The notes under the pieces are model-generated. The model was not told the DNA's origin. It ran no database searches and saw only the letters and a list, made by a program, of their open reading frames with translations. Both the position numbers and the translations under genes were made by a program. A stretch of DNA of 53,869 nt, from positions 1 through 53,869 of IMG/VR virus record IMGVR_UViG_3300028410_000014; one strand, 5' to 3'. This document shows, in pieces, positions 23,102 through 53,869 of the stretch (the stretch's first letter is position 1; each line of letters begins with the position of its first letter). The DNA is from a virus (taxonomy: Duplodnaviria > Caudoviricetes).

Positions 23102-23485
23102 TTAAAAAACAGAAAGCGCATCTCGCACTGCCTGGGGGATATCTATATCATTTCTGAACAAGTAAACAACACCGAACTCATCGTTTACAAGGTGCAGGAT
23201 TTCCCATGCATTCTCGTACTCTTCTAAATACTCCCAATTTACAAAGGCTTCATCATGTGCAACCATTGTCAGATGCAATAAGAAACCTTTATCACTTGTT
23301 AGATAAGCTTCCTCCTTGCTAAAGTCTTCAGCTGTTTCTAAAACAACAATTATGCCGATCTCTGACATCTTGTTACCCTGCCCTACCCACTCTTCAATAC
23401 TTAGTTGATAGCTATTAAGAGCAATTCTGTTGATTATAGGGTCTTCAATTGCTTCAATGTCTTCGAGTGTTCTGCAGATTATCAT
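23102..23485 (-). CDS. acidic hypothetical protein coupled to the RNAP
   Basis: ATGA overlap with RNAP stop. Confidence 0.7.
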   Translation of the reverse strand: MIICRTLEDIEAIEDPIINRIALNSYQLSIEEWVGQGNKMSEIGIIVVLETAEDFSKEEAYLTSDKGFLLHLTMVAHDEAFVNWEYLEEYENAWEILHLVNDEFGVVYLFRNDIDIPQAVRDALSVF

Positions 23486-25716
23486 GCAAATGCGTACTCC
23501 GAGTCAAGAACCAGTGTCAGGTCTAATTTGCCTTTCTCTATTTTTGTGATGTCCGCTCCTATGTCATTGAAAATTGATGTCAGTGGGTCTTTAAGGTACA
23601 GCTCAACAAAGGTCTCCCTGACAATCCTGAACAGATCATTCATGTCACCCAACAACGCCCCGTAGGAATCATGGACTGTTGTTACCGGGAATGGCGCTCT
23701 GCAGACTGTCAGTATGAGATGGCCCGCATCAAGGCTGTGAATTATGTTCGGTGCGGCACCTTGAGATTGCTTATTTTTAGAGGGCTTTGGCTGCTCCAGA
23801 TAAGAAATCATCAATTGGTACGTATTCTCGTAATACCCCGTGTTCAATCTCTTGCCTTTAGGCGCTCCGTATTGCACCCAAGTTTTCTTAACTTCTCCTT
23901 CAATGTAATGCTGTACTACAGGAAAGTTGGTTATTGGGACAGTCCAAGAGAGGAACTCACCGCGCTGTTCCGCTGCTTTGCCCGCTTGCTCAAATGTTGA
24001 GAGAAGACGCATCGGCTTTTTAAGACAATCCATACAAACTCTGAAAAGATCTCTTCCGAAATAAGCACCCCAAGTGTGTTCCATGTAAGTTAATAACTCA
24101 ATGCCGTGTTTGCGAGAGTCATTTATTACTTGCTCTCCCAGGCCATAAGGCTTAGAGCCGTACGGAAGAGTCATTACGCCTCTCTTGCATATCTTTCTTT
24201 TTTGCTTATCTTCGTTGACTCTCAACCAGAAGATCGGAGCAGCTCTTTTAATGATCTCCTTGTTTTTCAGCTTGTACTTCTTATAGATCTCAATAAGCTC
24301 TTGGCGTTGCTCGCTCTTAGCTTCTGTTGCATTGATCTGCTTCTTCATTTCGATGAGGGTATCAATGCATTTGTCCAGACTCTTCTTAGTCCTTGAAGTC
24401 ATTTCACTGACTTCTTTCTCAAGTTCAGCCCACATGTGGTATGCCACAAACATATAAAGGTCGCCCGGAAGATCTGAGGGCACTAAGTTTACATATGGTG
24501 CCGTCTCTTCATCCAGCATCAAAGCCGATAGATGTTGACTTCCGTTAGTGCTGCCGTCAAGATATGCTTCTAAGCCTGATTCATAAGAGAAGTCCTCGAC
24601 ATCACCCATTTGATGCTGTCTCAATTTCAACATCTCAAAGCATGCAGCAATAAACTGCCAGGGCTTATCTGCCTTCATCCATCCTTGGTTTAACTTAGGA
24701 TTTTCTGCGTACGCAACTATAATCTCTTCATTGTCAAGAACCCACATGTAGCGATCTTTCAGAGGTATCTTGTCTGTTTTTAACTCGTCTTCTCTCCCGG
24801 CGTCCCCGCCCCAGTTAGAAGCAATGCTGACACATAGCCAAAAGAAGCCGCTCTCTTTAATCGCTTTTCTGTCGTTTCGTATCAAAAGGCCTTTGGCCAG
24901 ATCGGAGCCTTGCTCGTTGAGATAGGCGGTTGCCACATACTTTCTTCCTCTGAAATCCATGTATTGTAAATGGTAGAAAGTGTCATCTAAGAATCGTTCA
25001 GCAATGCTGCTGATTGACTTTGTCTCCCTGATCTTTGTAGATCTTGCTTCAGGGCTGTGCGCCTTCCAGACATCATTAAATGCGTCTGCCTTGTTTCTGA
25101 AAGACCACAGCTGTAACTCGTGGACAGCTTTGTTGATGTTCCAACCAACTGATTGAGATTTATTAATAGCCTCATATATCAATGGATGTGTTAGCGGAGT
25201 TACTGTAGATCTGATTTTGTGGTTTGTTTTGATAAGCAATGCACCGGTTGAATGGCGAAAGCTTGTCCATGCGTCATAAGGTAGAAGTGATGGTAGCTTT
25301 TCTAAAGTAGCCGGTGGAAGTTCGTTCCATAATTTGATGAGAGCTGCATCGTCCACTACTTCTACAATATAGGCTTGGTGTCCATTTGAACCTTTGCTTT
25401 TCACTACTTTCAGCAAATTAAGTTCCTCAAAAGAGTAAAGAATAAATGCGCCTGTTTTAGCAGCCAACGCTGAATCTTTTTTGAGTTGCTCTTTGGACAT
25501 AAGCTTTTTACCAATAGCACACACAATTTCTGTAAGGAACGTGAATTGTGCTCCTGACTTTACTCCCTTTTTAGGTCTAGTGTAAAGATACACGACGCCT
25601 ATGATATCGTTGATGTGTTTTTCAAGGGACAACGCCTTCAAGTATTTTAGAGGCATTCTGATTGAAATTTCAGAACCAACTCGGGTTTCAAGACTATTCA
25701 AAATTTTGTTGCGCAT
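23482..25716 (-). CDS. T7-like single-subunit RNA polymerase (744 aa, intact)
   Basis: DFRGRKY, DGSTNGSQH (A), RKICKRGVMTLPYG (B), APNIIHSLD and TVHDS (C), C-terminal YAFA. Confidence 0.96.
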   Translation of the reverse strand: MRNKILNSLETRVGSEISIRMPLKYLKALSLEKHINDIIGVVYLYTRPKKGVKSGAQFTFLTEIVCAIGKKLMSKEQLKKDSALAAKTGAFILYSFEELNLLKVVKSKGSNGHQAYIVEVVDDAALIKLWNELPPATLEKLPSLLPYDAWTSFRHSTGALLIKTNHKIRSTVTPLTHPLIYEAINKSQSVGWNINKAVHELQLWSFRNKADAFNDVWKAHSPEARSTKIRETKSISSIAERFLDDTFYHLQYMDFRGRKYVATAYLNEQGSDLAKGLLIRNDRKAIKESGFFWLCVSIASNWGGDAGREDELKTDKIPLKDRYMWVLDNEEIIVAYAENPKLNQGWMKADKPWQFIAACFEMLKLRQHQMGDVEDFSYESGLEAYLDGSTNGSQHLSALMLDEETAPYVNLVPSDLPGDLYMFVAYHMWAELEKEVSEMTSRTKKSLDKCIDTLIEMKKQINATEAKSEQRQELIEIYKKYKLKNKEIIKRAAPIFWLRVNEDKQKRKICKRGVMTLPYGSKPYGLGEQVINDSRKHGIELLTYMEHTWGAYFGRDLFRVCMDCLKKPMRLLSTFEQAGKAAEQRGEFLSWTVPITNFPVVQHYIEGEVKKTWVQYGAPKGKRLNTGYYENTYQLMISYLEQPKPSKNKQSQGAAPNIIHSLDAGHLILTVCRAPFPVTTVHDSYGALLGDMNDLFRIVRETFVELYLKDPLTSIFNDIGADITKIEKGKLDLTLVLDSEYAFA

Positions 25717-36500: not shown

Positions 36501-39500
36501 TCAACTCCTGTTACCCACTTCGCGATTTTGCTTGTTCACGCCTTGGGCAATTGACGGCAGCATTTTGTAAATCTCTGCCTTAGTTTGACGACTGATGTCG
36601 CCGGTTATGTTTACATTAAAGATCTGCTGGCTGGAACTCTTTGGTGACATCTTGTCATTGGATATGTAAGTCGGCTTACTGACACGTCCCACCTGACCAC
36701 CTTTTGCAAACTTAGAGATAGACTTTCCACTGTTCAACGCAGTAAGAAGCCCTAGATTCTTTTGAGTATCTCTTGCGTTAACAACAAATTCTCGATTTGA
36801 GAGCATTGTGGGGATAGAGTCAGATGTGCCTGTACCTGGGCCTGTTACAAGGCCACCTGATGCAAAGTTTTGCAATTCAAACTCGGTCAGAACACCGCTG
36901 TCAATAAACGCATCTGTACCTCCGCCACCCCAGGCTCCGGCAACGCCAGCACCAATCTTCATTATAGCGCCGAAAAAATCGACACCACCACCGCCGCCGC
37001 CTGAGAACATCTCAGTCAGCATCCCACCAATTCCTTTTGCCAACGCGACAAACGACCTGCCTAAAGGCGCAAAAAAGCTCTCGGTGGCGGTATTTCCCAT
37101 TGCCAAGAATTGAGTTCCCATGTTTGCAAAGAAACCTTCAGCGTCTCTGTACCCACTCTCTATCATTTCCTTAGTAGGTACAGTAGTCTCACCGTCATCA
37201 CCCCATCCTGAGAACAGACCGGTAGCGCCTTCAGCGACTTGTGAGCCCAGCCCGTACTGACCTTCATTAATCTTTTTCAGAAAGCCATCAGTTACACCTG
37301 AGATAAGCTGATCTGCAATGCCTTGAGTGAATGCTTCGATTACACCCAGCGTGAAAGTGTTAGCCAAACTTTCAAAGAAGCTGGTAAAGCTCTTATTCTC
37401 ACCCGTCATCAATGCAGTCAAACCGGTCTTTATAGAGCCTCTGATGCCGTCTGACATGGCCTGGCCCGCCGATCTCATGCCGTCTGTCAGTCGAGTGACG
37501 CCCTTCAAAATATTATCTACTTCTCTCTCAAAACCTAAGCGAGCTTGCTCAATGGCTCGTGGGTTCATTCCAGAAGTATCTAAAGCGTTAAGCTCTCCAA
37601 TAAGCCCTTCTAATTTCTTTCTGTCAGAGTCGCTGGCAAGCCGTAATGTGCTTATATCGAGTGATTTACCCGCATCATCTGATGCAATTATAAGGTTGCG
37701 CAAGCTTCCTTCAATTCCTCCAAAGGCTTTCTTGGTAATGCCAGACGTCAAACTGGCTTCTGCTACATCTAAGTCTCTGAAGACGGAAGAAGTGTTTCTG
37801 TCACCTGTTTCCAAGGACTTCGGTGCGGCTCCAGTCTCTTTCGTTACCGGCTTGAGTGCCTCGGGGACTTCTACCCCGGCAAACTTATACAGAGCATCTC
37901 TGACAAAGCCTAACGCATCTGTATTCAAATCAACTGACGTCTTCATGTCTTGAAATTCAGACGACGGAGTGATTTGTGTTAAGAGCTCTTTGAGGCTGAG
38001 CTTGGCACTTGCTGCAATAGCTGCTACGACTTCTTCGGCATTAGTCTTATCGTATGTCAGCAGAATATCTTGCTGCTCATTTGTCAGACCTGCTTCCGCC
38101 ACCTTACGAAGTTGTTCAATTGCTTTTGAGTCGGCTTTATATTTATCACGCGATGCTTTTGAGACCTTTGCAAATTGAGCAATTGTTATCTCACCTATTG
38201 CATTCTGCGCTCTCGCAAAGCCTTCACCTAAACCTTCGTATGCGCTTTGAGCCAGGCTTATTTTAAGATCCTTGCCGAGCTTTAGAATTTCTGTTTGGCT
38301 GTCAATGGCAGATATCACGCCAAAGAGATTCAGAGACTTTTGAGCGCTGTCTTGAGCATTAGCTGCAAAGTTGTCAAATGCTTCTTTAGCAGCAGATGAG
38401 AATCTAAACAACAAGCTTCTGAGCTTAGAGTCGACCATTGCAAACTCACGATCAGAAAAGCCGCCTTGCAGTACAGAGCCTACTACATTGTTCTGATCGG
38501 CGAGGCTGTTACCGGCAAGTGCACTGAGTCTATCTCTGCTGGCCTCAAGTATTGCCAGTCGTTTCATTGCAGTGTAGTACTTTTCAGTTCCGACTGTCAA
38601 TCCTTTCAACTCAGCCTCAACAACTTGCAATTCAGACTCAATTCCTACAAATGTGTCTGTAGCTTCTTTAGACAACCTGTTCATAGCTTTGTAAGTGCTG
38701 AAACCTGCACTATTTAACGCTGCAATTACGCCTTGCGGGAGTTTGGCCATAACCGCTGTAGTTACTTTAATTGCCGCAGATGCCGCAATGAACTTGTCTG
38801 TCAGTAGCTTTTTGAGATCAAGTGCGGAGAAATTTGAACCTAAGTTCTTGATACCGTCATCTGCTATCTGAATTGCAAGGCCTGCATCTTTCAGAGTTTG
38901 CAATCCCGAAGAGTCAATCCCTCTGAAACTAGCCTCTTCAAAGCCTTTCGACATACCGTCGCCGAGTGCGCTCATGAGATTAGGTGCCGTGAGAACCGCA
39001 CGATTCATTCTATCTGTAAAAGAAAGGAAATTTCTTTCAAAGAGACTATAATTCTCTTCATTCTCAGAAGCTGCAGCCCGAACACCTTTTCCTTGGAGTG
39101 TTAGACCTTCTATCGTGGCATCCCGAACAGCCTGCAAGCCGTCGTTTCTATAGATCTGATTGAAGTCTACATTGACCATCTCAGCAACTTCTTTCAGCGC
39201 ATCAATCTTCCCTTCTTTTGCGACCCCTGTAAGCGTTCTGTATTTCTTCAGACTCTTTAAGATAGTCGCACCAGCCGCGCTTAGTGTGCCATTTGCGACG
39301 CTATCATCTGTGTCTCGAAGCTCGGTTATTGTGTCATTTACGCGATTACCTAAGCCGTCTGACATTGAACTGATGATTTCAGGGCTTAATCCCAAGTCCA
39401 CTGAAGACACACGCATACTCGCAACCATAGAAATACTGAGATTTGGGTTGCTGTCTATGCTGTCGTCTATAACATTTTGCGCACTCTTTACTATGCGCTT

Positions 39501-42500
39501 CATGTCAGCTTTCAAATTATTCTGAATATCGACATTTCGTGCATCTGTTTCAAGTGTCAGCTTTATGTTTTCCATGAAGTTCAGGAAAGTCTTCAGTTCT
39601 TGCAAATCGATGTCACTCAAAAACTGAGTCTCTTGAGCTTCAACACCAAAGTCTTTTAGACTTGTGAACAGATTTTGCAATTGATTATTCAGCAGTCGAG
39701 TATCTACTAGCCGTAGGCCTTCTTCAATACCTTGCCGCATTAGCATGCCGGCTGTTTCTGCAGCGTGTTCAAGATTCTTCATTAAAGGCGAATCATTATC
39801 GACAACTCTTGCAGAAAAGAAGCCCTTATCTTGCTCTTCTCTGAGCTCCCTGAACAGCTCAATGTATTTCGCTCTTATATTGTCTATTTGAGCATTCAAT
39901 ACAGCATTCGGCTTCTCGCCCGCATCGTACTCCTTGCTCAGATCAGTGAGCATTTTAATGTTTTCAACTTGCCCCGGTGCGGTGTACCCGGCATTAAATT
40001 CTTTATCTTTCTGAGACTCCAGTCGCTCTCTTATGTCAGCGCTGTTAAACGAGTTGGCCAGCCACATATTTATGGCGTAAACTGCGTCAAGACCTATCTG
40101 GTCAAAAAATTGCTGGGAAGCAGTGAAAATTGAAGTCTTCCCCTCCTGCTTAGAAAGATCTTCTATTGTGTTTCGAAACTCTTCAGTTGAGTAAACTGAC
40201 GCGGAAACCGCCTTACTTACTTGCCGCTCAAGTCCTCTATTTGAGGTCTGAATGCGTTTCATAAGTGTTTTGTCTTCTTTGCCACTCATCTGATTCTCAG
40301 AGGCTTCTAAGATTAACTTACTATACTCTTCCAGACGGTCGTTCAGTTTTTCTAATGTGCGCTCTGGTAAGTTACTCCTGTTCAGCCTGCTTAAATTAAA
40401 GTCTTGCTCAATCCCCAGATTCTTAGCACGTGAAGCTACTTCAGTCTTAAGCCCGGTGCGTGCGTCAACAGAGGGCGATTTGGCCTCCAAATTAAAGAAC
40501 TCACGGGTTCTTGCAATGGCTTTATCCAGCTTCTCATTAAAGTCGTCACCTGTGCCGAACAACCAAACAAGCGCTGCACCGGCAACAGCCAGACCTACTG
40601 CTGTCACAGCCAGTACCGCGATACCAGCTAACATAATAGGGACTGCCGCCAGAAAAGCACCCGAAATCATGGCACCGATTGTCATGATCCAAGGTACAGT
40701 TGCAAGCTTAGTTATAATCCCTGTTATTATGGAGGAGCCAATCGTGGCACCGATTGTACCTCCCATTATCGCGCCCTCCGCACCTCCACCGAAATAGCCC
40801 GCCAGTGCCCCTACAGTTCCACCTAAAGCACTGCCGAAGGCTCGCTGTGTTCTAGTTGCTGCAGTTCTAGCTCTGCGTGCCCAATCTTGGATAATGCTGC
40901 CGCTGAATGTTGCAAGCAGCAGAGCGCCTATTCTTGCACGGAATATATAGAACGCTGCAACAATGCTCGGCAAAGTTACGGCAGCAATTTGATATGCCAT
41001 TGCTTGGAATGGGTTAGATATCTTAAGAGAAGCCCAGTCATCAACAAGGGAATCAAGCACCGATTTATCTGGTTTTATATCTGGAACATCCCCTTCGTCT
41101 TTATCTGAGGCGAATGCCTTGCCGGCAAATAAACTACCTGCGACAATTGCGGCAATGAGTGCTGCTCTACCGGCCCGCCCTATCAAAAGCCTACCTAGGC
41201 TGCCCATCGGACCACCGAGCCTGTTTACATAAGCGCTGAACGCGGCAAACTTTCCTCGCATCAGAGCTAAAAAATCGACAATCTTATTCTTGATTGCAGC
41301 TGGGCCTCTCAGAAACAATGCGCCGAGGAATCCATCTGGGCCTGCCCTGAAAGTGATGCTGCGAGCGAATCTTGTCAAAGACGCTGTAATATTTGAGAGC
41401 AAGCCTGTTAGCGCCCCTAATACCCCTGAACTGCCGCCTGCCCCATTTCGACCTCCAAACATACCACTGAAAGCTCTACCAATACTGGCAAATATAGGAG
41501 ATCTACTGAAGTCTCGGAGCGCAATAGAGATTTTATCCATCCCACCTCTGACCAAAAGCTCAATCTTGGCCATTGTTCTTCTGGGGTTCGGCCCGAGCAG
41601 CACACCTTGCACCCAAGTAAGGCCTGTGCCTACGTATGAAGACAAAGTGGTAGTTATGGAAGTTGTAAAGCCGGTAAGTATCGGTCCGAAATTGTCTACA
41701 GCACGTTGACCAAATGTACCCACGCTACCGAACAGTACATCAGAAAATTTCCGGCCTAGGCCTGAAGTTGACAGCACTGATTCAACAGCAGATATCAATG
41801 GGCGTCCTAGGTATTTAGCAACCAGCTGCTTGACATTTGTCAAACCGCCCTCACCTGCCAAGAACAAATACAACAGACCACCTTTGGTTGCATACTCAAG
41901 CAATACAGAATCCATAAAGATCCCGTCAATTGCGCCGAACATAGTTAATGCTAAACCAATGCCAGACAGTGACCGGGTCAAACCTAACGGACCGAACAAG
42001 TATCTTGACAGAATGCCTCCGCCGCTGCCTGTGATCATTGCCTTACCGGCGGCTAGTATTTTGCCTATTGTTTTCTTCCAGCTGTCGTCACTCAACAAGG
42101 CAGGTATTAATTTTGTGCCAAGAAAGTAAGTACCAATTAAGCCTAACGCACCAGGCAGTGCCGAGGAAAACTTACCTGCAATGTTTAGAATACCTGTAAG
42201 CAGTCCTCCGATTATTGGCAACTCTTTAGCTAGTCCTTGTGTAAGAGACGAAAAGAAGGAACTGGCAGCATTCAGTATTTCAGGCAATGCGTCAAATAGC
42301 GCTGCAAGAGTGCCGCCTATAAATTTACCTACTGCTTCACCTAAGACTGACGCAAAACTGCCTCCAAATAGTTTTTCTGAAAGGTTATTGGACAAGCTGA
42401 ATGCTATACTTGCCGCAACAGCAATAATACGTGCTCTGAATTGACCGGCAACATCGCCTCGCAACAGACCTACAGTTATTGCTGCTGCGGCAAAGCTGAG

Positions 42501-45101
42501 GGCAGCGCTTAAAGCCGATTGAATTTTTGGGCCTAAGCCTTGAAATATGTCGGCAACCTTAGTGGCAAAATTACGGAGACCGTCATAAAGAGAGTTGAGC
42601 TTCCCGCCTACACCGGCAACTGAAGGCACCAATATCTCGGGCACACTTACAGAGCGGGCTTGCAACCTTTCACCGACGCCTGCGTAGACTTCTGAAAATA
42701 GCTTAAGTACTTTGCTGCGGAACTTCAACAAACCTACAGAAACACGCTCCCACAAATTACGGCTGTACTCTACAACACCGTCAATAGTATCAGGCCAGTA
42801 GGAGTTACCTACTACTTTATCATATATATCAAAGAAAGCATCTTTAATTTTCTCGGCAAAAGAAATCACTTTCTCTAATACTAGAGGTAGCCCGTTTTTG
42901 ACTACGGCGTATATACTGTCAGTTAAATCTCTGAATGTTAAAGATAGTCCTCTCAAAATTATTATGGGAGTGGCTATTGCTGCGGCAATTGCGGCCAACA
43001 CGCGACTCAAACCACCTAAGTCGCCCACTACGCTGCTGATACCCTCAGAGAAGCTGTTAACAATGCCTAAAAAGCCACCGCTTTCGGCCATTGCTGAAAC
43101 GCCGGTGCTCCATGCGCCGGAGCCAAAGGAAGACATCTTGGATAGTAATGAGTCCAATTCGCCCATATTTTCCTTAACAACACTGACAAAGCCTACAAAT
43201 ATGCTGCCTGCTACGTTCTTAAGTTTCACTGCGTAGGCAATTACGCCGTCAACCATATCAGGCCAGTAGGAGTTACCTACTACTTTATCATATATGTCAA
43301 GAAAGGTGCCTTTGATACTGTCACCAAAGCTTGATATAAAGGACTGTACTCTTCCAAGGCCACTTTTTGTTTTGCTAAAAATATTACCGACCATACTGTC
43401 AAATGCCGATTCTATCACTTTCGTATACTTGGCGACTTTTGTGAACTTGAGAAACTCAAGCGCAATGTCTTTAAACAGTTTTGACAGAGATGTTACGGGA
43501 ACCCAGTCAGCTATTATTGTGGCCAACATTTTGACTGCCTTCACAGCGCTTGCCGCCATTGCTTCAATGACAGCCATGATGACCTTTGGCAATGACTGTA
43601 AGACATCTCCCAAAAATGTAAACACGTTAAACAAGGAAGGCGCCCACATGTCAAAAATAAGACGAGATGCCTTGTAAAAAGGAACGGACAGGCCTGTTAT
43701 GCCTTTGCCTATTTGTGCAAGAGATACGAAAAAGGTTTCGAGGAAACCTGTCTTTATCGATATCAAGGCGTTGTCAGTTAAGCCAATGTACCTGAGCGCA
43801 GACTTAAAGCTGTTATCTACGTTTATAAATGTTCTGCGAAGTACTGTACCTATTGTGTTTGTGTTGCCGGCCAATGCAACCGCCAAATCACCGAAAGCGT
43901 CTCCGTATAATTTCAGGTTTCTGACTGAAAAAATTTCTTTTATCGTCTCTACGTCAAAACCGGCGGCTGCCCAATTGCGAGGACTGAGTCGTCTTATCTG
44001 GCGAAGCGCTAATTCTACATCGCTTTCTATGTTAATGAAGTCAACGAGACGTATCTGTTTAAAGGAGGTAATGGCACCACCCAGAAAACTCCGGTCGATA
44101 TCCCGTATTATAGAATTCAGGTCTTCAGACAATGTATCTGTGAAAGAAATGTCCGGTATGATTCTGAGGAAGTACTCTCCCATAGTTTTAAAGGAGTTTC
44201 CCAAAGGCTTACTGATCACTTCTATCATCTGTTGCGCTGTTTGTAGCGCAAACATGAATCTGTTGCCCATTTCAAAAGCGCCGTCTGCGGCATCACTTAT
44301 GCCGTCGGCAAAACGGAAAGTGCCTCGAGTAATAGCAGCGGTCAGGTTGAGACCTTTGTCCAATTCCGATGTGTAAATTGACATCGAATCTTTGAGGTAG
44401 CCACCGGCCTCTCCTATTGTGGGCGCCAGCGCCTCAAACTCTTTAGATATGGCAGCACTCTCACGAACAAGCGCACCGAAAACTTCTCTATCTGTCAATT
44501 TACCTTGTTCGGCCAAGCTTTTAAGACTGCTCTTTGCAACACCCATGCCGTCGGCAATAGCTTCTGCAACACGAGGCAGCTGCTCCATAACTGACATCAA
44601 TTCTTGACCGCGAAGCGCACCTGCAGCAAGACCTTGGCCCAGCTGTATAATAGCCGCGTTAGCAGACTCAGCGTCTGTGCCATATATTGCGATGCTTTGT
44701 TGAATGGCCTTTGTGGCCACCAAAATCTCAGACATTGGTTTGCCGGTGCCTTTGAGCGATCTGCCGAATGCACCGAAGGTTTCAACGGAGCTTTGTATGC
44801 TGCTGCGTGTGTCTCTGGCTATTTTATACAATTCTTTTTGAGCTAATATTAACTCATTTGTGCGCCCTGTTACAGATGCTATCTTGTTTTCAAGATTAGA
44901 GAAATTATTTGAAACTCTGAATAGCGCGTTGCCACCCAGTCCCACCGTCGCAATTGCGGCAATACTTCTTACGACTCTGCCAATGGACTTGCCAGCTGAA
45001 AGCGCAGAAGACTCTATATTACCAAGAGACTTATTAACATCCTGTAACTCTCGTGTAGCGCGGTCCGCATTGGCTTTGACGTCTATGAATACACCAGACA
45101 T
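36501..45101 (-). CDS. tape measure protein (2866 aa)
   Basis: QLGQGLAAGALRGQELMSVMEQ tape-measure motif, hydrophobic central region, FASGG..GPGTGTSDSIP near C-terminus. Confidence 0.93.
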   Translation of the reverse strand: MSGVFIDVKANADRATRELQDVNKSLGNIESSALSAGKSIGRVVRSIAAIATVGLGGNALFRVSNNFSNLENKIASVTGRTNELILAQKELYKIARDTRSSIQSSVETFGAFGRSLKGTGKPMSEILVATKAIQQSIAIYGTDAESANAAIIQLGQGLAAGALRGQELMSVMEQLPRVAEAIADGMGVAKSSLKSLAEQGKLTDREVFGALVRESAAISKEFEALAPTIGEAGGYLKDSMSIYTSELDKGLNLTAAITRGTFRFADGISDAADGAFEMGNRFMFALQTAQQMIEVISKPLGNSFKTMGEYFLRIIPDISFTDTLSEDLNSIIRDIDRSFLGGAITSFKQIRLVDFINIESDVELALRQIRRLSPRNWAAAGFDVETIKEIFSVRNLKLYGDAFGDLAVALAGNTNTIGTVLRRTFINVDNSFKSALRYIGLTDNALISIKTGFLETFFVSLAQIGKGITGLSVPFYKASRLIFDMWAPSLFNVFTFLGDVLQSLPKVIMAVIEAMAASAVKAVKMLATIIADWVPVTSLSKLFKDIALEFLKFTKVAKYTKVIESAFDSMVGNIFSKTKSGLGRVQSFISSFGDSIKGTFLDIYDKVVGNSYWPDMVDGVIAYAVKLKNVAGSIFVGFVSVVKENMGELDSLLSKMSSFGSGAWSTGVSAMAESGGFLGIVNSFSEGISSVVGDLGGLSRVLAAIAAAIATPIIILRGLSLTFRDLTDSIYAVVKNGLPLVLEKVISFAEKIKDAFFDIYDKVVGNSYWPDTIDGVVEYSRNLWERVSVGLLKFRSKVLKLFSEVYAGVGERLQARSVSVPEILVPSVAGVGGKLNSLYDGLRNFATKVADIFQGLGPKIQSALSAALSFAAAAITVGLLRGDVAGQFRARIIAVAASIAFSLSNNLSEKLFGGSFASVLGEAVGKFIGGTLAALFDALPEILNAASSFFSSLTQGLAKELPIIGGLLTGILNIAGKFSSALPGALGLIGTYFLGTKLIPALLSDDSWKKTIGKILAAGKAMITGSGGGILSRYLFGPLGLTRSLSGIGLALTMFGAIDGIFMDSVLLEYATKGGLLYLFLAGEGGLTNVKQLVAKYLGRPLISAVESVLSTSGLGRKFSDVLFGSVGTFGQRAVDNFGPILTGFTTSITTTLSSYVGTGLTWVQGVLLGPNPRRTMAKIELLVRGGMDKISIALRDFSRSPIFASIGRAFSGMFGGRNGAGGSSGVLGALTGLLSNITASLTRFARSITFRAGPDGFLGALFLRGPAAIKNKIVDFLALMRGKFAAFSAYVNRLGGPMGSLGRLLIGRAGRAALIAAIVAGSLFAGKAFASDKDEGDVPDIKPDKSVLDSLVDDWASLKISNPFQAMAYQIAAVTLPSIVAAFYIFRARIGALLLATFSGSIIQDWARRARTAATRTQRAFGSALGGTVGALAGYFGGGAEGAIMGGTIGATIGSSIITGIITKLATVPWIMTIGAMISGAFLAAVPIMLAGIAVLAVTAVGLAVAGAALVWLFGTGDDFNEKLDKAIARTREFFNLEAKSPSVDARTGLKTEVASRAKNLGIEQDFNLSRLNRSNLPERTLEKLNDRLEEYSKLILEASENQMSGKEDKTLMKRIQTSNRGLERQVSKAVSASVYSTEEFRNTIEDLSKQEGKTSIFTASQQFFDQIGLDAVYAINMWLANSFNSADIRERLESQKDKEFNAGYTAPGQVENIKMLTDLSKEYDAGEKPNAVLNAQIDNIRAKYIELFRELREEQDKGFFSARVVDNDSPLMKNLEHAAETAGMLMRQGIEEGLRLVDTRLLNNQLQNLFTSLKDFGVEAQETQFLSDIDLQELKTFLNFMENIKLTLETDARNVDIQNNLKADMKRIVKSAQNVIDDSIDSNPNLSISMVASMRVSSVDLGLSPEIISSMSDGLGNRVNDTITELRDTDDSVANGTLSAAGATILKSLKKYRTLTGVAKEGKIDALKEVAEMVNVDFNQIYRNDGLQAVRDATIEGLTLQGKGVRAAASENEENYSLFERNFLSFTDRMNRAVLTAPNLMSALGDGMSKGFEEASFRGIDSSGLQTLKDAGLAIQIADDGIKNLGSNFSALDLKKLLTDKFIAASAAIKVTTAVMAKLPQGVIAALNSAGFSTYKAMNRLSKEATDTFVGIESELQVVEAELKGLTVGTEKYYTAMKRLAILEASRDRLSALAGNSLADQNNVVGSVLQGGFSDREFAMVDSKLRSLLFRFSSAAKEAFDNFAANAQDSAQKSLNLFGVISAIDSQTEILKLGKDLKISLAQSAYEGLGEGFARAQNAIGEITIAQFAKVSKASRDKYKADSKAIEQLRKVAEAGLTNEQQDILLTYDKTNAEEVVAAIAASAKLSLKELLTQITPSSEFQDMKTSVDLNTDALGFVRDALYKFAGVEVPEALKPVTKETGAAPKSLETGDRNTSSVFRDLDVAEASLTSGITKKAFGGIEGSLRNLIIASDDAGKSLDISTLRLASDSDRKKLEGLIGELNALDTSGMNPRAIEQARLGFEREVDNILKGVTRLTDGMRSAGQAMSDGIRGSIKTGLTALMTGENKSFTSFFESLANTFTLGVIEAFTQGIADQLISGVTDGFLKKINEGQYGLGSQVAEGATGLFSGWGDDGETTVPTKEMIESGYRDAEGFFANMGTQFLAMGNTATESFFAPLGRSFVALAKGIGGMLTEMFSGGGGGGVDFFGAIMKIGAGVAGAWGGGGTDAFIDSGVLTEFELQNFASGGLVTGPGTGTSDSIPTMLSNREFVVNARDTQKNLGLLTALNSGKSISKFAKGGQVGRVSKPTYISNDKMSPKSSSQQIFNVNITGDISRQTKAEIYKMLPSIAQGVNKQNREVGNRS
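42788..43295. repeat. perfect 40-bp direct repeat (42788-42827 and 43256-43295)
   Basis: tatcaggccagtaggagttacctactactttatcatatat twice, 468 bp apart, in frame (IYDKVVGNSYWPD). Confidence 0.9.
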
Positions 45102-50334: not shown

Positions 50335-53300
50335 TTAACCGACGCCATACCAAGCGCGGTCTTTAGTGAAGCCTTCAGGGATCTTCTCTAAAATATCTAA
50401 AGCCTTAAGTATGTCATCATCTGTAAGCAATTTCCCACCTACGCGTGACCTACCGGCTACAGGTATCAAACCTATGTCAATAGCTTCTTCCCTGAACTTG
50501 TTGTAGACTTCCCTGGGTAGACCTCGTTTAAGCATTTCTTTCAGTGTCATCTCAATGACATTGTCTTTGAGAACTTCTGCGTATATTTCACGAAGCCCTT
50601 CTCGTGCTTGTGTCATGACTGCTGCGTTAGCGAAGAACGCATCATGTATAGTGCTTGTTGGAACATTGTTCTTCTTGCCCCATAAGTGAAACTTCTTTAC
50701 GATAACTGCGTCATTGGAGTGATTCGTTGTGTTAAGAGGAAGGCGTGACGTTCCTCCGTCCTATAAATTCAACTTTGCAAATTCACCGTGATGTACTTTA
50801 GCCATTTCATCATATGTGCCTGCAGCTTCAAGCTCACTTTCAAATTGAATTTATAGAATCCTACATGTTACCATGCAGACCAGACTATATCTTACATCCA
50901 TTGTGGACGTCTCCGCGCTTCGAACTCACTTGAGCTCTACAAGTCTCATATCCCGTTTTGGGATGTACACTCTAGTCGTTGCACCTTCAAACCCATTCCT
51001 GGGTAAGCTTGGCTCAGGATTGTCCACTTGGGAGTTCCCCTGAATTCACGGAGTTTTATAACGGCAATTACTTACCGTTTACTGCGTAGGCTGTCCTGGC
51101 TCTTGTGGCATCAGCAATATCATTTATCTTACCTGACTCACCTGTTGCAACATCCCACCACCCGGCCTCAGTCTTCTGATCCACTTGCACTATGCTGGTG
51201 ATCATCTTGCCGTTCTTGTCACGATACATCAGCTTCTCTTCAAACGACTGCGTGAAGTTCTGCTCTATTGTCTTACCGTCAAAGTTCACCCAAGGCACAT
51301 TTGTCCAACTCTTCGGGAGCTTATTGGCGTAAAGCAATTCAACACCGTCTGAGATTGTCTTTCCGAGAAACTTACGCTTTAATATGACAGTACCTGTTCT
51401 GCGATTGCCTGACGGGTCACTTCCGAAGATGATCTCTGACATTGCGTTCATCTTGTTCCAAAAAGGAAGCCTCTCAACAAAGTCTTTGAGATATAACTTA
51501 CTGGGATCAAGTCCCAAGGCGGAAGCCACACCAGTAGGGAGCTTGGTGCCTTTTCTCACACTGCCTACAGTTGCCGCTTTAAATATCTCCTTGAAGTCAA
51601 ACGCGGCTGAGGACGGCTTAGCGTTTGTGAGATACGCCTGTGCCAACCTGCCAAAGAACTTTGTGAAGTCCTTAAGTATAGGCACCTGTTCAGACAGCTG
51701 CGCAGACATGATCTTTGCGATTGTCTTAAAGTCATCAGGTGTGACTACTTTGTTGTAACTGCGTGACATCTTCTCCACAAGATCTTTTGTCTGAGAGTCA
51801 AGGAACCACAACTGATCCATTATGTCAACACCGGGATCTGTGCCTTTATTGAACACATCTCGGACGTCTGTGCGAAGTGCCCTCAAACGTGCTGCCATCT
51901 CAGGATCAAAGCGATCATATCTGGCGGCTCTGGCAGAGATCTCATTCAGCACTGTGTCCCGATCAGCTGCTTTTACAACCAATGTGTCACCGTATTTTCC
52001 CAGAGCTTTACCTAACTTACCTTCGACATTGAATATGCCGGTCTTCTCACCAGCGCCGTATAAAGTACTGTTATTAACTAAGGTCGCTAAGCTTAGCCAG
52101 ACAAAGTGCCTGCTGCATGTCGCCATGCAGATTAGACTATATCTTACATCCATTGTGGATGTCTCCGCGCTTTGAGCTCGCTTGAGCCCTACGGGTTTCA
52201 TAACCAGTTAAGGTCGTTTACCCTAGTCGTTGAACCTTCAAATGTGTTTCCACATGAGCTTGGCTGCTGATTATCTCTTAGAGACGTCCCAGCAATTCAC
52301 GGAGTTTATACATGGCCACTTTAACCATGTTTTGCATTACGTTAAACACAAGCGCTACCCTGTGCTGGCTTTCACCCTGCATGTCGCCATGCAGATCAGA
52401 CTATATCATCACCTGTTTAGGTGTCCTGCGCTTCGGATTCGCTTGAACCCTACGGACTTCATCTGCCGTTCTGGCCGGTATGCCCTAGTCGTTGCACCTT
52501 CAAGTCCCTTCCGGGACGAGCTTGGCTCAGGATTGTCTCAAAGAGATGTCCCCTGAATTCACAGGATTTTAAAAGGCCCAATTTAAGCCTTTGCTGCCTT
52601 ACGTAAGTCGCGTTCTGTCAAGCCTAACCTCTCATTCAGCTCCCTAAACACAGGATCATTGAATGTTGCTGCAGCTATTTCATCGTACCTTTGCTTTCAA
52701 CTATAATCGTTACATATAGCCGGTTCTCTGATGAACTCCTATATGTCGCCATATAGACAAGACTATATCATCACCTTCATAGGTGTCCCGAGCTTCGAGC
52801 TCACTTGAGCCCTACGGATTTCATCCACCGTTCTGGCGGGTATATCCTAGTCGTTGAACCTTCAAACCCATTCCTGGGTAAGCTTGGCTGCTGATTATCT
52901 CTTAGAGACGTCCCAGCAATTCACGGGATTTTACAAGGCCGTACAGCCTTCGCTTCTGATTTGTGGGAACTACGTTAGAAAGCTCCGCCAACTGTTTGTT
53001 GCGGGTTGTCAAGGCAATGATCTGAGCACCTGACGAAGAAGCATCCTGCTCCAGGGCGAGTCCTGTTTTGTAGTTTACAAGGTTGTTTAGAGATTCTTTA
53101 GAATAGAAGTCAGTTAAGGCTACACTTCGCATGTCTTTGTCAGTTAAATACTGTACATTTAATATTCTGTTAGACTTAATGGCTGACTGTATTCGGTGCA
53201 ATCCATCTACAATCACTTGACGCCCGTTTGTCTCCCAGATCAAGACAGGTGCATTCATATCAGGTGGCGTATTGCGTACTTCTAGCTTAGTATTGACTTG

Positions 53301-53869
53301 TGGACTTTTTTCTAGTGACTTTGCATCTAACTTATATACAGGGCGCTTTAAATTAAAGAGAGCGTCAACTTGGTATAGTACACCGTTTCTTGAAAAAGTA
53401 TTACCTACAGGTTGTTTCAAGAAGTCATCTATCTTTGAAGTCTCAATGGCGAACCTGAAAAACTTCCCCAACTCTTCCGCGTCAATGCTTTGCACAATAT
53501 CCATTTCAAGAATAGCGCGAATGTCTCCGGGCTTATTCCTGCGCATATGGTTGCCAATCTTAATCATATCAGGCCGAAACTTTTCAGCTATTTTCTGGCG
53601 TCCTGTGATAGTCAGTGAGCTGAAACGCCCTTCAAACTTCTCGTCAAGCCCACCCAAGAAAGCACCCACCTGATCCTGAAAATTCTCAAATGCGTCTTTG
53701 CTGAAGGCGTAATCTTCGGCGGTGTTAAGGAATGGACGAAATGTCTCACCACTTTGCGGACCTATCAGGCCTCTATCGTAGATTCGTGCACGATGGTCAA
53801 TGAAAGGGTTGTTGGAAAACGCAGTGTCATCTTTCCTCAACCACTCCATAGCCTTGAATCGCTCATAAG
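50335..53869 (-). CDS. second T7-family RNA polymerase (probable virion RNAP), 5' end outside window, five exons: 53869-52945, 52688-52586, 52334-52324, 52067-51074, 50724-50335
   Basis: Joined exons give one frame with DHRARIY, QDASSSGAQ (A), RKAAKA|QNMV|TLYG (B), VNG|NHSND and TIHDAF (C); 800 aa from Met at 53849, frame open to the window edge. Confidence 0.92.
50725..51073 (-). mobile_element. group I intron 4 (349 nt) with homing-endonuclease relic
   Basis: P1 AACGGU/GCCGUU with U-G; core CAACGACUAG and AAGAUAUAGUC; terminal G; removal joins VNG to NHSND. Confidence 0.92.
50761..50844 (-). pseudogene. AP2-domain C-terminal fragment of a lost HNH-AP2 homing endonuclease
   Basis: FESELEAAGTYDEMAKVHHGEFAKLNL* with no start or nuclease domain, inside intron 4. 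Confidence 0.72.
52068..52323 (-). mobile_element. group I intron 3 (256 nt)
   Basis: P1 ACAUGGU/GCCAUGU; 7-bp P10 UAAAGUG/UACUUUA; conserved core; terminal G. Confidence 0.93.
52335..52585 (-). mobile_element. group I intron 2 (251 nt)
   Basis: P1 AAAGGCU/GGCCUUU; starts with in-frame UAA; conserved core; terminal G. Confidence 0.92.
52689..52944 (-). mobile_element. group I intron 1 (256 nt)
   Basis: P1 AAGGCU/GGCCUU closing GUAC loop; conserved core; terminal G; removal gives RRL-YDEIAA. Confidence 0.92.

What the first reader, a model, noticed from the sequence alone, without database searches (positions are those of the whole stretch)
50335..53869. T7-family RNA polymerase gene interrupted by four self-splicing group I introns clustered on its catalytic motifs
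Seen: the three ORF-track fragments plus two unannotated exons join into one frame once four 251-349-nt inserts are removed. Each insert has a P1 with a U-G pair at the 5' splice site, group I core elements (CAACGACUAG, GAUAUAGUC), extra stems between P7 and P3' (IA-type) and a terminal G. One lies about 30 codons after motif A, two are inside motif B, and one directly precedes HSND. None encodes a complete endonuclease. Known: phage group I introns occur in DNA polymerase, nrd, td, structural and multisubunit-RNAP genes; I know of no case of four in a single-subunit RNAP, but could not search. Inference: enzyme production needs four splicing events, a possible GTP/Mg/temperature-sensitive control or a shield against competing homing endonucleases.
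Basis: partly seen in the sequence, partly recalled or inferred. Interest (0 to 1): 0.9.

Follow-up and report, generated by a model that had tools for sequence, protein, structure and literature searches.

The report
Four introns split phage RNA polymerase
A phage gene for an RNA polymerase that is probably carried inside the virus particle is cut into five pieces by four small self-splicing RNA introns, an unusually dense pile-up of a well-known kind of selfish genetic element.

Summary
Rfam finds four group I introns over its gathering score on the minus strand. That frame runs without gaps at the junctions along an intron-less homologue in roseophage DSS3_VP1 and along EBPR siphovirus 1. 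Introns are 256, 251, 256 and 349 nt; exon 3 is only 11 nt. All have a U·G 5' splice pair, a terminal G, P10 pairing and IA-type extra stems.

In 82 related loci, all 25 further introns lie at these same four sites and mostly carry HNH endonuclease genes. The window's introns have lost theirs; intron 4 keeps the last 28 codons of one.

The host gene is a Mu-F head-protein domain fused to a divergent T7-fold RNA polymerase, sited between portal and scaffold genes, so probably virion-borne. A canonical T7-like RNAP lies elsewhere in the window. A 99%-identical strain (L095) has a fifth intron.

Splicing itself is untested. This is a new, extreme member of a known kind.

The parts
52945..53869 (-). 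Exon 1 (the part in the window; frame starts at 53867). Holds the motif-A Asp D275 at 53045-53043 and a 98-aa in-frame insert at 53106-53399.
   Evidence: Open frame. Aligns to DSS3_VP1 residues 894-1096 and to EBPR siphovirus gp47. The N-terminal continuation is seen in L095.
52689..52944 (-). Intron 1: group I, 256 nt, no endonuclease ORF.
   Evidence: RF00028 73.7 bits. P1 AAGGCU/GGCCUU with U·G, P10 GUAC/GUAC, terminal G. 94% identical over 222 nt to the site-1 introns of L024, L021 and L012.
52586..52688 (-). Exon 2, 103 nt.
   Evidence: Restores ...RRL|YDEIAAATFNDP...RKAAKA, with no gap at either junction against EBPR siphovirus 1 and DSS3_VP1.
52335..52585 (-). Intron 2: group I, 251 nt, no endonuclease ORF.
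   Evidence: RF00028 79.8 bits. P1 AAAGGCU/GGCCUUU with U·G, P10 CAA/UUG, terminal G. 98% identical over 209 nt to the endonuclease-bearing site-2 intron of L007/L008.
52324..52334 (-). Exon 3, 11 nt (CAAAACATGGT), coding the QNMV of motif B.
   Evidence: Required for the gap-free alignment KAQNMVTLYGAG versus KAANMVTFYGAG. Its first 3 nt form P10 of intron 2 and its last 7 nt form P1 of intron 3.
52068..52323 (-). Intron 3: group I, 256 nt, no endonuclease ORF.
   Evidence: RF00028 72.4 bits. P1 ACAUGGU/GCCAUGU with U·G, 7-bp P10 UACUUUA/UAAAGUG, terminal G. Same insertion point as the HNH-bearing intron of EBPR siphovirus 1.
51074..52067 (-). Exon 4, 994 nt.
   Evidence: 57-59% identical to EBPR siphovirus gp49 and 98% to L007/L008.
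50725..51073 (-). Intron 4: group I, 349 nt, with the relic of an endonuclease gene.
   Evidence: RF00028 68.5 bits. P1 AACGGU/GCCGUU with U·G, terminal G. Matches the 769-nt L010 intron apart from a 420-nt internal deletion.
50761..50847 (-). Relic of the HNH-AP2 homing endonuclease gene inside intron 4: its last 28 codons plus the stop.
   Evidence: 100% identical to the 3' end of the 162-aa L010 ORF. That ORF hits Pfam HNH_3 at E 7.9e-20 and AP2 at E 1.3e-7.
50335..50724 (-). Exon 5 with stop codon. Holds NHSND (equivalent to T7 H784-D787) and motif C IHDAFF.
   Evidence: PF00940 E 0.0017. The homologous part of L020 aligns to T7 RNAP residues 768-837.

Best explanation
The four inserts are real group I introns. 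They belong to one IA-type family with P7.1/P7.2 stems and are 74-80% identical to each other. They sit in the late-operon gene for a roughly 1640-aa fusion of a Mu-F/SPP1-gp7-like head protein and a divergent T7-fold RNA polymerase.

Each intron entered by homing. Relatives carry introns at exactly the same four sites, and each site has its own types of HNH endonuclease gene, placed after P9 and before a conserved 3' hairpin. In this phage all four endonuclease genes were later deleted. What remains is the ribozyme core plus the 3' hairpin and the terminal G.

To make the polymerase, the pre-mRNA must undergo four guanosine-initiated self-splicing reactions. P1 and P10 pairings line up the exons, including an 11-nt exon that serves as P10 for intron 2 and P1 for intron 3. 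The protein is then probably packed into the head through its Mu-F domain and delivered with the DNA.

Shown here: the introns, their exact boundaries, their family structure, the site polymorphism, endonuclease loss, and purifying selection on the spliced frame. Inferred: splicing in vivo, the homing history, and virion packaging.
For: Introns and boundaries
- Rfam: 4 of 4 hits over gathering.
- Covariation on 24 aligned cores: 95.7% of 1411 cells are paired, against 31-41% when partners are slid. 44 of 61 pairs show changes on both sides. The splice-site U·G pair is kept in 24 of 24.
- P1, P10 and the terminal G are present in every intron.
- The joined frame is 806 codons without an internal stop and has no gap at any junction against DSS3_VP1.
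- EBPR siphovirus 1 is contiguous across sites 1, 2 and 4, and has an 850-nt insert at site 3 with a group I core (40.5 bits, E 1.2e-8) and an HNH ORF.

Relatives and endonuclease genes
- My own covariance model gives 25 hits in 82 related loci, and all 25 lie at the four sites.
- 59 of the 82 loci have no intron.
- Endonuclease ORFs of 162-259 aa in the long introns hit Pfam HNH, HNH_3, NUMOD or AP2.
- Intron 4 equals the L010 intron minus 420 nt.

Gene still functional and assembly sound
- dN/dS of the spliced frame against intron-less alleles is 0.027 (L008) and 0.054 (L009).
- An independent contig, L095, is 99.1% identical and carries introns 1-3 plus a fifth.
- A DNA contig in run X1 links introns 4 and 3 (table 8, record 2).

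Host gene
- L020, a full-length intron-less homologue, hits Phage_Mu_F at E 4.3e-15 and RNA_pol PF00940 at 45.8 bits against a cut-off of 22.
- The L095 N-terminus hits Mu_F at E 2.1e-13.
- An AlphaFold model of an intron-less homologue (pLDDT 70.6) has T7 RNAP as its best PDB match (1s76_D, E 4.7e-9, probability 1.00).
Against: - No RNA evidence of any kind: no RNA run was listed as holding the stretch, so splicing is inferred from sequence alone.
- P10 is only 3 bp for intron 2, and for intron 4 it is 3 bp, or 6 of 7 with a mismatch.
- The window's own exon fragments score below the Pfam cut-off (best 17.7 against 22 bits). The RNAP assignment therefore rests on full-length relatives and a moderate-confidence model (TM about 0.44).
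- An 11-nt exon between two similar ribozymes invites exon skipping, which would shift the frame.
- Virion packaging is inferred from the Mu-F domain and gene position only.
- Many of the 82 loci are near-duplicates (L007/L008, L021/L024, L056/L057, L083/L084), so the independent count of occupied sites is lower than 25.
Confidence: 0.88

Rival explanations
1. The introns are kept because they protect the gene. With all four (or five) endonuclease target sites already split by an intron, the polymerase gene cannot be cut by the site-specific HNH endonucleases that related co-infecting phages carry at these sites. This does not replace the relic reading; it adds selection to it.
For: Relatives encode HNH endonucleases inside introns at each of the four sites. 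The window has the most occupied sites of the 83 genomes or fragments compared: 4, against at most 2 elsewhere. Passages of PMC11878797 and the abstract of PMC11620839 (listing) report that the phiPA3 intron endonuclease disables the RNAP gene of the co-infecting phage phiKZ.
Against: No test of cleavage or competition exists. Occupied sites with decayed endonuclease genes are also what the neutral homing cycle predicts. 54 of the 62 loci informative at all four sites do well with no intron at all.
Confidence: 0.3
2. Splicing is a regulatory gate. Production of the polymerase is tuned by conditions such as GTP, Mg, temperature or translation, because four ribozymes must all fire.
For: Only by analogy. 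A passage of PMC5931967 reports light-dependent splicing of a cyanophage psbA intron. Passages of PMC10914365 mention condition-dependent group I splicing.
Against: Most relatives have no intron in this gene (59 of 82 loci), so no conserved regulatory need is apparent. The introns vary in presence even between 99%-identical strains (window versus L095). There are no data on splicing rates.
Confidence: 0.1
3. The gene is dead or split: the inserts do not splice, and the fragments are either non-functional or work as separate polypeptides.
For: No RNA data. The three large exons are each open reading frames. Annotators of EBPR siphovirus 1 called the pieces gp47 and gp49 as separate genes.
Against: dN/dS is 0.027-0.054 across the spliced frame. 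Exons 2 (103 nt) and 3 (11 nt) hold motif-B residues and could not be expressed alone. The ribozyme cores keep their pairings through compensatory changes. Frames are restored exactly at all four sites.
Confidence: 0.03
4. Assembly chimera: the four introns come from different strains, and no single genome has them all.
For: The four cores are 74-80% alike and the contig ends 130 nt beyond a polymorphic fifth site. Several joints between intron copies with sides of only 20 nt appear in DNA contigs (table 5).
Against: L095, an independent metagenome contig, carries introns 3, 2 and 1 contiguously at 99.1% identity. In run X1, record 2 spans 50985-52286 (intron 4 to intron 3), record 3 spans 52273-52535 (intron 3, exon 3, intron 2), and record 4 spans 52508-52887 (intron 2 to intron 1), each with 0-6 differing letters (table 8).
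Confidence: 0.03

Closest known systems
Staphylococcus phage Twort orf142, with three group I introns (Landthaler & Shub 1999; seen only as a reference entry in PMC11878797; details recalled)
   Same: Several small group I introns of one subgroup crowd one phage protein-coding gene. Exon skipping between neighbouring introns is an issue there too.
   Different: Three introns there, four here, and five in strain L095. The host gene differs. Here relatives show each site empty, occupied with an endonuclease gene, or occupied without one. Two introns here are only 11 nt apart.
Bastillevirinae DNA polymerase and terminase introns (PMC11878797; passages read)
   Same: [quoted passage not shown] Mean intron length there is about 800 nt because of endonuclease ORFs, as in this gene's relatives.
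   Different: No RNAP gene was reported as a host in the passages I read. The maximum stated there is three introns per gene.
phiPA3 RNAP-subunit intron with HNH endonuclease gp210 (PMC11620839, abstract in the listing; passage in PMC11878797)
   Same: An HNH-bearing group I intron targets a phage RNA polymerase gene, and the endonuclease acts against intron-less competitors.
   Different: That is a subunit of a multisubunit RNAP in a jumbo phage, with one intron and an intact endonuclease. Here it is a single-subunit RNAP with four introns and every endonuclease gene lost.
Phage T4 td / nrdB / sunY introns, subgroup IA2 (recalled; td is mentioned in PMC5746245)
   Same: The same ribozyme architecture, with extra P7.1/P7.2 stems, in a phage host, with optional endonuclease ORFs.
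   Different: In T4 there is one intron per gene. The endonuclease ORFs there sit in other loops (recalled), whereas here the ORF always follows P9.
Coliphage N4 virion RNA polymerase gp50 (described in PMC5512222; passages read)
   Same: A T7-fold RNAP module embedded in a large virion-borne protein encoded among late genes. The phage also has a second, T7-like RNAP.
   Different: N4 gp50 has no Mu-F domain. Those passages say it is almost always fused to a metallopeptidase domain and occurs only in N4-like phages. Here the carrier is Mu-F, the phage has a 2866-aa tape-measure protein and so is siphovirus-like, and sequence similarity to N4 RNAPs is marginal (6dt7, E 0.052).

Membership tests
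Group I intron (Rfam RF00028) | Covariance-model score over the curated gathering threshold | tested here: met
   68.5-79.8 bits against a threshold of 50, for 4 of 4 inserts. Intron 0 of L095 scores 88.5 bits.
Group I intron (Rfam RF00028) | P1 helix between the 5' exon end and the internal guide, with a U·G pair at the splice site | tested here: met
   6-7 bp P1 with U·G in all four, and in L095 intron 0. The pair is U·G in 24 of 24 aligned family members.
Group I intron (Rfam RF00028) | Terminal G, with P10 pairing of the 3' exon to the guide sequence | tested here: met
   All end in G. P10 is 4 bp for I1, 3 bp for I2, 7 bp for I3, and 3 bp (or 6 of 7) for I4. It is weak for I2 and I4.
Group I intron (Rfam RF00028) | Conserved core helices P3-P9, including the P7 pseudoknot, supported by covariation | tested here: met
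   61 pairs in 11 helices are 95.7% paired, and 44 pairs show compensatory change. P7 is 100% paired but nearly invariant. The alignment was fitted to my own model, which biases it toward the structure. The slid-partner controls at 31-41% argue that the signal is real.
Group I intron (Rfam RF00028) | Removal restores a reading frame collinear with intron-less homologues | tested here: met
   Intron-less DNA alleles with the same breakpoints for I4 and I1 appear as contig joints, but with short sides of 20-46 nt.
Group I intron (Rfam RF00028) | Guanosine-dependent self-splicing | not testable with these tools
   No RNA holder was listed. Needs in vitro transcription and splicing, or cDNA.
Subgroup IA (IA2-like) | Extra helices P7.1 and P7.2 between P7 and P3' (criterion recalled from Michel & Westhof) | tested here: met
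   Helices 8-9 and 10 (columns 153-188 and 192-213) are 96-100% paired, and 14 of their 15 pairs show compensatory changes. Three distant members lack the first of these.
Mobile (homing) group I intron | Intron-encoded homing endonuclease | tested here: not met
   None of the window's four introns has an ORF of 60 aa or more. Only a 28-codon relic survives in I4. The feature is met in relatives: HNH-family ORFs of 162-259 aa.
Single-subunit (T7-like) RNA polymerase, Pfam PF00940 | Profile score over the curated cut-off | tested here: inconclusive
   Window fragments: best 17.7 bits against a cut-off of 22 (exon 5), none for exons 1 and 4. The full-length intron-less homologue L020 scores 45.8 bits, over the cut-off.
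Single-subunit (T7-like) RNA polymerase, Pfam PF00940 | Catalytic motifs A (Asp), B (R-x3-K-x7-YG) and C (HD), plus the H784-equivalent HSxD | tested here: met
   DASSSGAQ aligns with N4 RNAPII DATSSGLQ. RKAAKAQNMVTLYG has the R-x3-K-x7-YG spacing (the T7 spacing is recalled). NHSND...IHDAFF aligns with T7 VHSQD...IHDSFG.
Single-subunit (T7-like) RNA polymerase, Pfam PF00940 | Right-hand polymerase fold like T7 RNAP | tested here: met
   The model of homologue L019 has pLDDT 70.6. The Foldseek PDB top hits are T7 and mitochondrial RNAPs, E down to 4.7e-9, probability 1.00, TM 0.35-0.44. The model is of a relative, not of the window's joined protein.
Phage Mu F / SPP1 gp7 minor head protein, Pfam PF04233 | Mu_F domain in the same polypeptide, with the gene between portal and scaffold/major head genes | tested here: met
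   L095 N-terminus E 2.1e-13, aa 144-250. L020 E 4.3e-15. The order portal-like, this gene, scaffold, major head is seen, and in the DSS3_VP1 annotation. The domain lies outside the window.
N4-like virion RNA polymerase | RNAP packaged in the virion and ejected to transcribe early genes | not testable with these tools
   Inferred only from the Mu-F fusion and the late-gene context. The Naomviridae paper does not mention an RNA polymerase (0 occurrences) and holds no virion proteomics.

The most novel reading that the evidence does not exclude
This gene is the most intron-dense phage protein-coding gene on record, with four introns here and five in the 99%-identical strain L095. It marks a natural arena in which a guild of at least five site-specific HNH endonuclease/intron pairs competes over one essential, virion-delivered RNA polymerase. 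That polymerase would be a previously unrecognised Mu-F::T7-fold 'ejected RNAP' family, which gives siphovirus-like phages (including the dU-DNA Naomviridae) an N4-like early transcription strategy.

Ribozyme cores have moved between sites within genomes: intron 3 groups with site-1 cores, and the two L084 introns group together. That would imply endonuclease-independent transposition or core swapping. Full occupancy of the sites would then be selected as immunity during co-infection.
Probability: 0.3. Interest if true: 0.78.

Novelty: new member of a known kind. Interest (0 to 1): 0.6.

Why it matters
Group I introns in phage genes are textbook material, so the mechanism is not new. Three things here are useful.

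1. Extreme packing. The gene holds four introns, five in a sister strain, and two of them are 11 nt apart inside motif B. The tiny exon is almost fully used by P10 of one ribozyme and P1 of the next. That is a natural test case for how neighbouring ribozymes fold and avoid exon skipping.

2. A full series of homing stages. 187 relatives matched in IMG/VR, and the 80 fetched show each site in all stages of the homing cycle: empty, occupied with an endonuclease gene, and occupied without one. Different HNH types serve different sites. This is good material for studying endonuclease competition over one gene.

3. An overlooked host gene. The Mu-F::RNAP fusion is annotated in public records only as 'head protein', 'head morphogenesis' or 'hypothetical'. 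I found no description of it in my searches. If the protein is virion-borne, many siphovirus-like phages bring their own RNA polymerase into the cell.

It also corrects public annotation: EBPR siphovirus 1 gp47, gp48 and gp49 are one intron-split gene plus its homing endonuclease.

Tried and rejected
Alternative 3' splice sites. Rfam's model ends at the P9 hairpin G, 42-136 nt before my 3' ends.
- Splicing there would stay in frame for introns 2 and 3, adding 14 and 15 codons.
- That would insert residues into motif B, which no homologue has.
- It would break the R-x3-K-x7-YG spacing and lose the P10 pairings.
- For intron 1 it runs into a stop codon, and for intron 4 into stops as well (read).
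- Rejected.

3' tails. Folding the tails alone gives two small hairpins each, but weak z-scores of -0.4 to -2.3. I therefore rest the 3' hairpin on its conservation across relatives, not on energy.

RNA evidence. No RNA holder was listed by the look-up of sequencing runs, so nothing can be said about expression.

DNA contig joints. Joints 52145->52520, 50893->52384 and 53735->52376 have sides of about 20 nt, or lie between similar intron copies. I treat the first two as repeat or other-organism artefacts. The third led to the fifth intron.

Sequence searches.
- Pfam on the window's exon pieces gave nothing for exons 1 and 4.
- A PDB sequence-profile search was only marginal (E 0.052).
- Pfam on the 98-aa insert found nothing. 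My ParB-like impression (a DGLHR motif) is recalled and untested.
- The 17-letter junction string gave 0 hits in viral contigs. In metagenome contigs it gave 16 loci, of which 15 were chance hits with no RNAP or intron match.

Script error corrected. The site-tally script put L049 at site 3. The junction sequences show it is at site 2, and I corrected it by hand.

Literature. Ten searches were run. None turned up a group I intron in a phage single-subunit RNAP gene, a phage gene with four group I introns, or a Mu-F::RNAP fusion. I read passages only, not whole papers.

Not used: complex prediction, the search for homologous proteins, the search of protein representatives, the listing of cluster members, the look-up of encoding contigs.

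Full report
THE OBSERVATION

The window is a whole IMG/VR virus record: 53,869 nt, linear, estimated 77% complete. Rfam finds exactly four matches over a gathering score in the entire window. All four are RF00028 group I introns, all on the minus strand between 50861 and 52990, at 68.5-79.8 bits against a threshold of 50.

The exons are 53867..52945, 52688..52586, 52334..52324, 52067..51074 and 50724..50338, with the stop at 50337..50335. The introns are 256, 251, 256 and 349 nt. Joined in a script, the exons give 2421 nt, which is 806 codons with only the terminal stop. No intron contains a gene-strand ORF of 60 aa or more.

ARE THE JUNCTIONS RIGHT?

Three independent tests agree.

(a) Collinearity with intron-less homologues.
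- The joined protein aligns to the uninterrupted 1463-aa 'head morphogenesis' protein of roseophage DSS3_VP1 with no gap at any junction...QKRRL|YDEIAAAT......RKAAKA|QNMV|TLYGAG... and ...AVNG|NHSNDAV....
- EBPR siphovirus 1 is 59-83% identical. It is contiguous across sites 1, 2 and 4, and it has an 850-nt insert exactly at site 3.
- That insert holds a group I core (40.5 bits, E 1.2e-8, below gathering) and the annotated HNH endonuclease gp48.

(b) RNA rules. Every intron has a 6-7 bp P1 with U·G at the 5' splice site, ends in G, and can pair its guide region with the first bases of the next exon. This P10 pairing is 4, 3, 7 and 3 bp (the last is 6 of 7 with one mismatch).

(c) Rejected alternatives. 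Ending the introns at the P9 hairpin, where the Rfam model stops, would keep introns 2 and 3 in frame. It would also insert 14-15 residues into motif B that no homologue has, so I rejected it.

The 11-nt exon 3 (CAAAACATGGT) is therefore real. Its first three bases make P10 of intron 2 and its last seven make P1 of intron 3, leaving one base unpaired.

STRUCTURE AND FAMILY

The four introns are 74-80% identical to each other and share CAACGACTAG and GATATAGTC. I built a covariance model from the four cores plus the EBPR core and aligned 24 family members.

On that alignment I counted 61 pairs in 11 helices, including the P7 pseudoknot, which I added by hand.
- 95.7% of cells are paired, against 31-41% with slid partners.
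- 44 pairs show changes on both sides.
- 0 of 500 shuffles reach the observed covariation score.

The alignment was fitted to the model, which favours the structure, but the slid-partner controls are far below the observed value. Two well-supported helices lie between P7 and P3', the IA-type signature (criterion recalled). After P9 every member has a tail with a hairpin whose loop reads roughly YUARCGA, then about 10 unpaired bases and the terminal G. The energy support for this tail is weak; its conservation is the evidence.

RELATIVES: THE SAME FOUR SITES, EMPTY OR OCCUPIED

Exon 4 recovered 187 relatives in IMG/VR, of which the best 80 were kept. With the two GenBank phages that makes 82 loci.

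My model finds 25 further introns in 23 of these loci, and every one lies at one of the window's four sites. The script put L049 at site 3; the junction sequences show site 2, and I moved it by hand.

| Site | Occupied loci | Which |
|---|---|---|
| 1 | 3 | L012, L021, L024 |
| 2 | 6 | L007, L008, L049, L083, L084, L085 |
| 3 | 8 | L005, L011, L018, L030, L056, L057, L058, L086 |
| 4 | 8 | L010, L013, L014, L027, L044, L069, L083, L084 |

- 59 of the 82 loci show no intron, 21 show one, and 2 show two. The two with a pair, L083 and L084, are near-identical.
- Several other pairs are also near-duplicates, so independent events are fewer than 25.
- Of the 62 loci informative at all four sites, 54 are empty.
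- The window, with four, is the extreme.

Most introns in relatives are 720-1035 nt and carry an ORF of 162-259 aa after P9. The Pfam hits by site are below.

| Site | Example locus | Pfam hits |
|---|---|---|
| 1 | L024 | HNH_3 + NUMOD4 |
| 2 | L008 | HNH_3 |
| 2 | L084 | HNH |
| 3 | L018, L058 | HNH + NUMOD1 |
| 4 | L010 | HNH_3 (E 7.9e-20) + AP2 (32.3 bits, just under the 33.3 cut-off) |

THE WINDOW'S INTRONS ARE DELETION DERIVATIVES

- Intron 4 is 96.7% identical to the first 241 nt of the 769-nt L010 intron and 100% identical to its last 124 nt. It differs by a 420-nt internal deletion.
- What is left of that endonuclease gene is its last 28 codons and stop, at 50847..50761.
- Intron 2 is 98% identical over its 209-nt core to the endonuclease-bearing L007/L008 intron.
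- Intron 1 is 94% identical to L024's.
- Intron 3's core is closer to site-1 cores (78-79%) than to other site-3 introns (about 70%). In a FastTree of cores with the P1 region removed, it groups with site-1 introns (local support 0.967).
- The two introns of L084 also group together. This hints at core movement or conversion between sites. It rests on one quick tree.

IS THE GENE ALIVE, AND IS THE ASSEMBLY SOUND?

- dN/dS of the spliced frame is 0.027 against L008 (464 codons) and 0.054 against L009 (498 codons). Both relatives are intron-less over the compared sites.
- Logan contigs of DNA run X1 bridge intron 4 to intron 3, intron 3 through exon 3 to intron 2, and intron 2 to intron 1 (table 8).
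- Contig joints in salt-lake runs match precise loss of intron 4 (skips 350 nt with one replaced letter) and of intron 1 (skips 256 nt, cut ambiguity 5). Their sides are short, 20-46 nt (table 5).

A FIFTH INTRON IN A SISTER STRAIN

A joint in runs X1 and X2 linked position 53739 to intron-like sequence through 17 extra letters. Searching that 17-mer found nothing in viral contigs. In metagenome contigs it found 16 loci, of which one, L095, is relevant.

- L095 is 99.1% identical to window 52037-53735.
- It carries introns 3, 2 and 1, plus a 268-nt group I intron (Rfam 88.5 bits; my model 188 bits) inside GETF|RPF, at window position 53739/53738.
- That intron has a perfect 7-bp P1 (AGACGUU/GACGUCU), a U·G splice pair and a terminal G.
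- The flanking codons differ synonymously from the window's empty site: ACG TT|T AGA against ACA TTT CGT.
- None of the 65 other loci that span this site has an intron there.
- L095 starts inside intron 3, so whether it also has intron 4 is unknown.

WHAT THE HOST GENE IS

L095 supplies the missing N-terminus. The ORF starts 834 codons upstream of the window's first codon, giving about 1640 aa in all. It has a Phage_Mu_F domain at residues 144-250 (E 2.1e-13), and a DUF4055 portal-like gene lies upstream.

L020, a full-length intron-less homologue of 1684 aa, hits Phage_Mu_F (E 4.3e-15) and RNA_pol PF00940 (45.8 bits against a cut-off of 22). The window's own fragments are sub-threshold (17.7 bits).

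An AlphaFold model of intron-less homologue L019 (31-sequence alignment, pLDDT 70.6, pTM 0.65) has T7 RNAP and mitochondrial RNAPs as its best PDB matches (E 4.7e-9, probability 1.00, TM 0.35-0.44).

Motif alignments:
- DASSSGAQ aligns with the motif A of N4 RNAPII.
- RKAAKAQNMVTLYG is motif B.
- NHSND...IHDAFF aligns with T7 VHSQD(784-787)...IHDSFG(810-815).

So sites 2 and 3 are inside motif B, site 1 is 33 codons after the motif-A Asp, and site 4 abuts the H784-equivalent motif, about 25 residues before motif C.

Downstream lie a scaffold-like gene and the major head gene, the same order as in DSS3_VP1. A Mu-F/SPP1-gp7-type domain is described as a head component and a carrier of delivered effectors (passages of PMC5512222). 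Packaging and ejection of this RNAP is therefore a reasonable inference, but it is untested.

The window also encodes a separate, uninterrupted canonical T7-like RNAP at 23485-25716 (PF00940 E 8.5e-64). It is barely similar to the fused one (BLASTP E 0.009). This two-polymerase layout recalls N4.

MECHANISM, WITH ODDS

Best reading, 0.88: these are self-splicing group I introns left by repeated homing into the most conserved DNA of the gene. They have now lost their endonuclease genes, and all must be spliced out of the late transcript to give the full-length protein.

Whether their retention is selected as protection against the endonucleases of co-infecting relatives (0.3, not exclusive) or is simply the late stage of the homing cycle cannot be decided here. 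A regulatory role (0.1) has no support. A dead gene (0.03) and an assembly chimera (0.03) are contradicted.

COMPARISON WITH WHAT IS KNOWN, AND NOVELTY

- Multi-intron phage genes are known. Twort orf142 has three (reference entry seen). Bastillevirinae DNA polymerase and terminase genes have 'two or even three' (passage of PMC11878797).
- An HNH intron in a multisubunit RNAP gene of phiPA3 is known.
- My searches found no group I intron in a phage single-subunit RNAP gene, no phage gene with four or more group I introns, and no description of a Mu-F::RNAP fusion.
- The Naomviridae paper does not mention an RNA polymerase at all.
- These libraries are incomplete and supplements were closed.

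I therefore file the finding as a new, extreme member of a known kind, with an under-described host gene. Interest is 0.6.

Noticed in passing
L095:1704-1971 (minus strand); equivalent to window 53739/53738: A 99%-identical sister strain carries a fifth group I intron of 268 nt (Rfam 88.5 bits) inside the conserved GETF|RPF segment of exon 1. The window has this site empty, and so do 65 of 65 other loci that span it.
   Followed up: yes
window 23485-25716 (-): A second, uninterrupted, canonical T7-like RNA polymerase of 744 aa (PF00940 E 8.5e-64, phrog_414 E 2.8e-114). The phage therefore encodes two single-subunit RNAPs, as N4 does.
   Followed up: partly
window 14905-17541 (-): The primase/helicase gene appears to contain an intein with a LAGLIDADG endonuclease: Hom_end_hint E 3.2e-19 at aa 470-543 and LAGLIDADG_3 E 1.7e-7 at aa 666-735. 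This is another mobile element in the same genome.
   Followed up: partly
window 53106-53399 (-), within exon 1: A 98-aa in-frame insert just before motif A, absent from DSS3_VP1, EBPR siphovirus 1 and most relatives. It has no Pfam hit; phrog_17560 scores E 6.5e-4. The same hot spot holds a GNAT acetyltransferase domain in L086:259-639, a 212-aa insert in L024 and about 144 aa in L020. It looks like a cargo-domain slot in the polymerase.
   Followed up: partly
L007:2046-5578 and L008:3848-7380: The exon sequence upstream of their site-2 intron is only 64% identical to the window, while downstream it is 98% identical. This mosaic boundary at the intron suggests recombination or co-conversion at the homing site.
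   Followed up: no
A5 alignment of intron cores (window, L084 and others): Intron cores do not cluster by insertion site. Window intron 3 groups with site-1 introns, and the site-2 and site-4 introns of L084 group together (FastTree). This may reflect movement or conversion of ribozyme cores between sites within a genome.
   Followed up: partly
L005 (JF412302.1 25771-31144) and L006 (NC_055826.1 21242-25633): Public annotation misses the polymerase. EBPR siphovirus 1 gp47 ('head protein'), gp48 (HNH) and gp49 ('hypothetical') are one intron-split Mu-F::RNAP gene plus its homing endonuclease. The DSS3_VP1 'head morphogenesis' protein contains the RNAP domain.
   Followed up: yes
window 36504-45101 (-): A very long tape-measure-like protein of 2866 aa, with many PHROG tape-measure hits at its N-terminus. 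This implies a long-tailed, siphovirus-like particle.
   Followed up: no
3' ends of all introns, e.g. window 52689-52738, 52335-52376, 52068-52112, 50725-50775: The introns share a 3'-terminal module: a small hairpin, a second hairpin with a YUARCGA-like loop, about 10 unpaired bases and the terminal G. It lies downstream of the endonuclease ORF in relatives and is kept when the ORF is deleted.
   Followed up: partly
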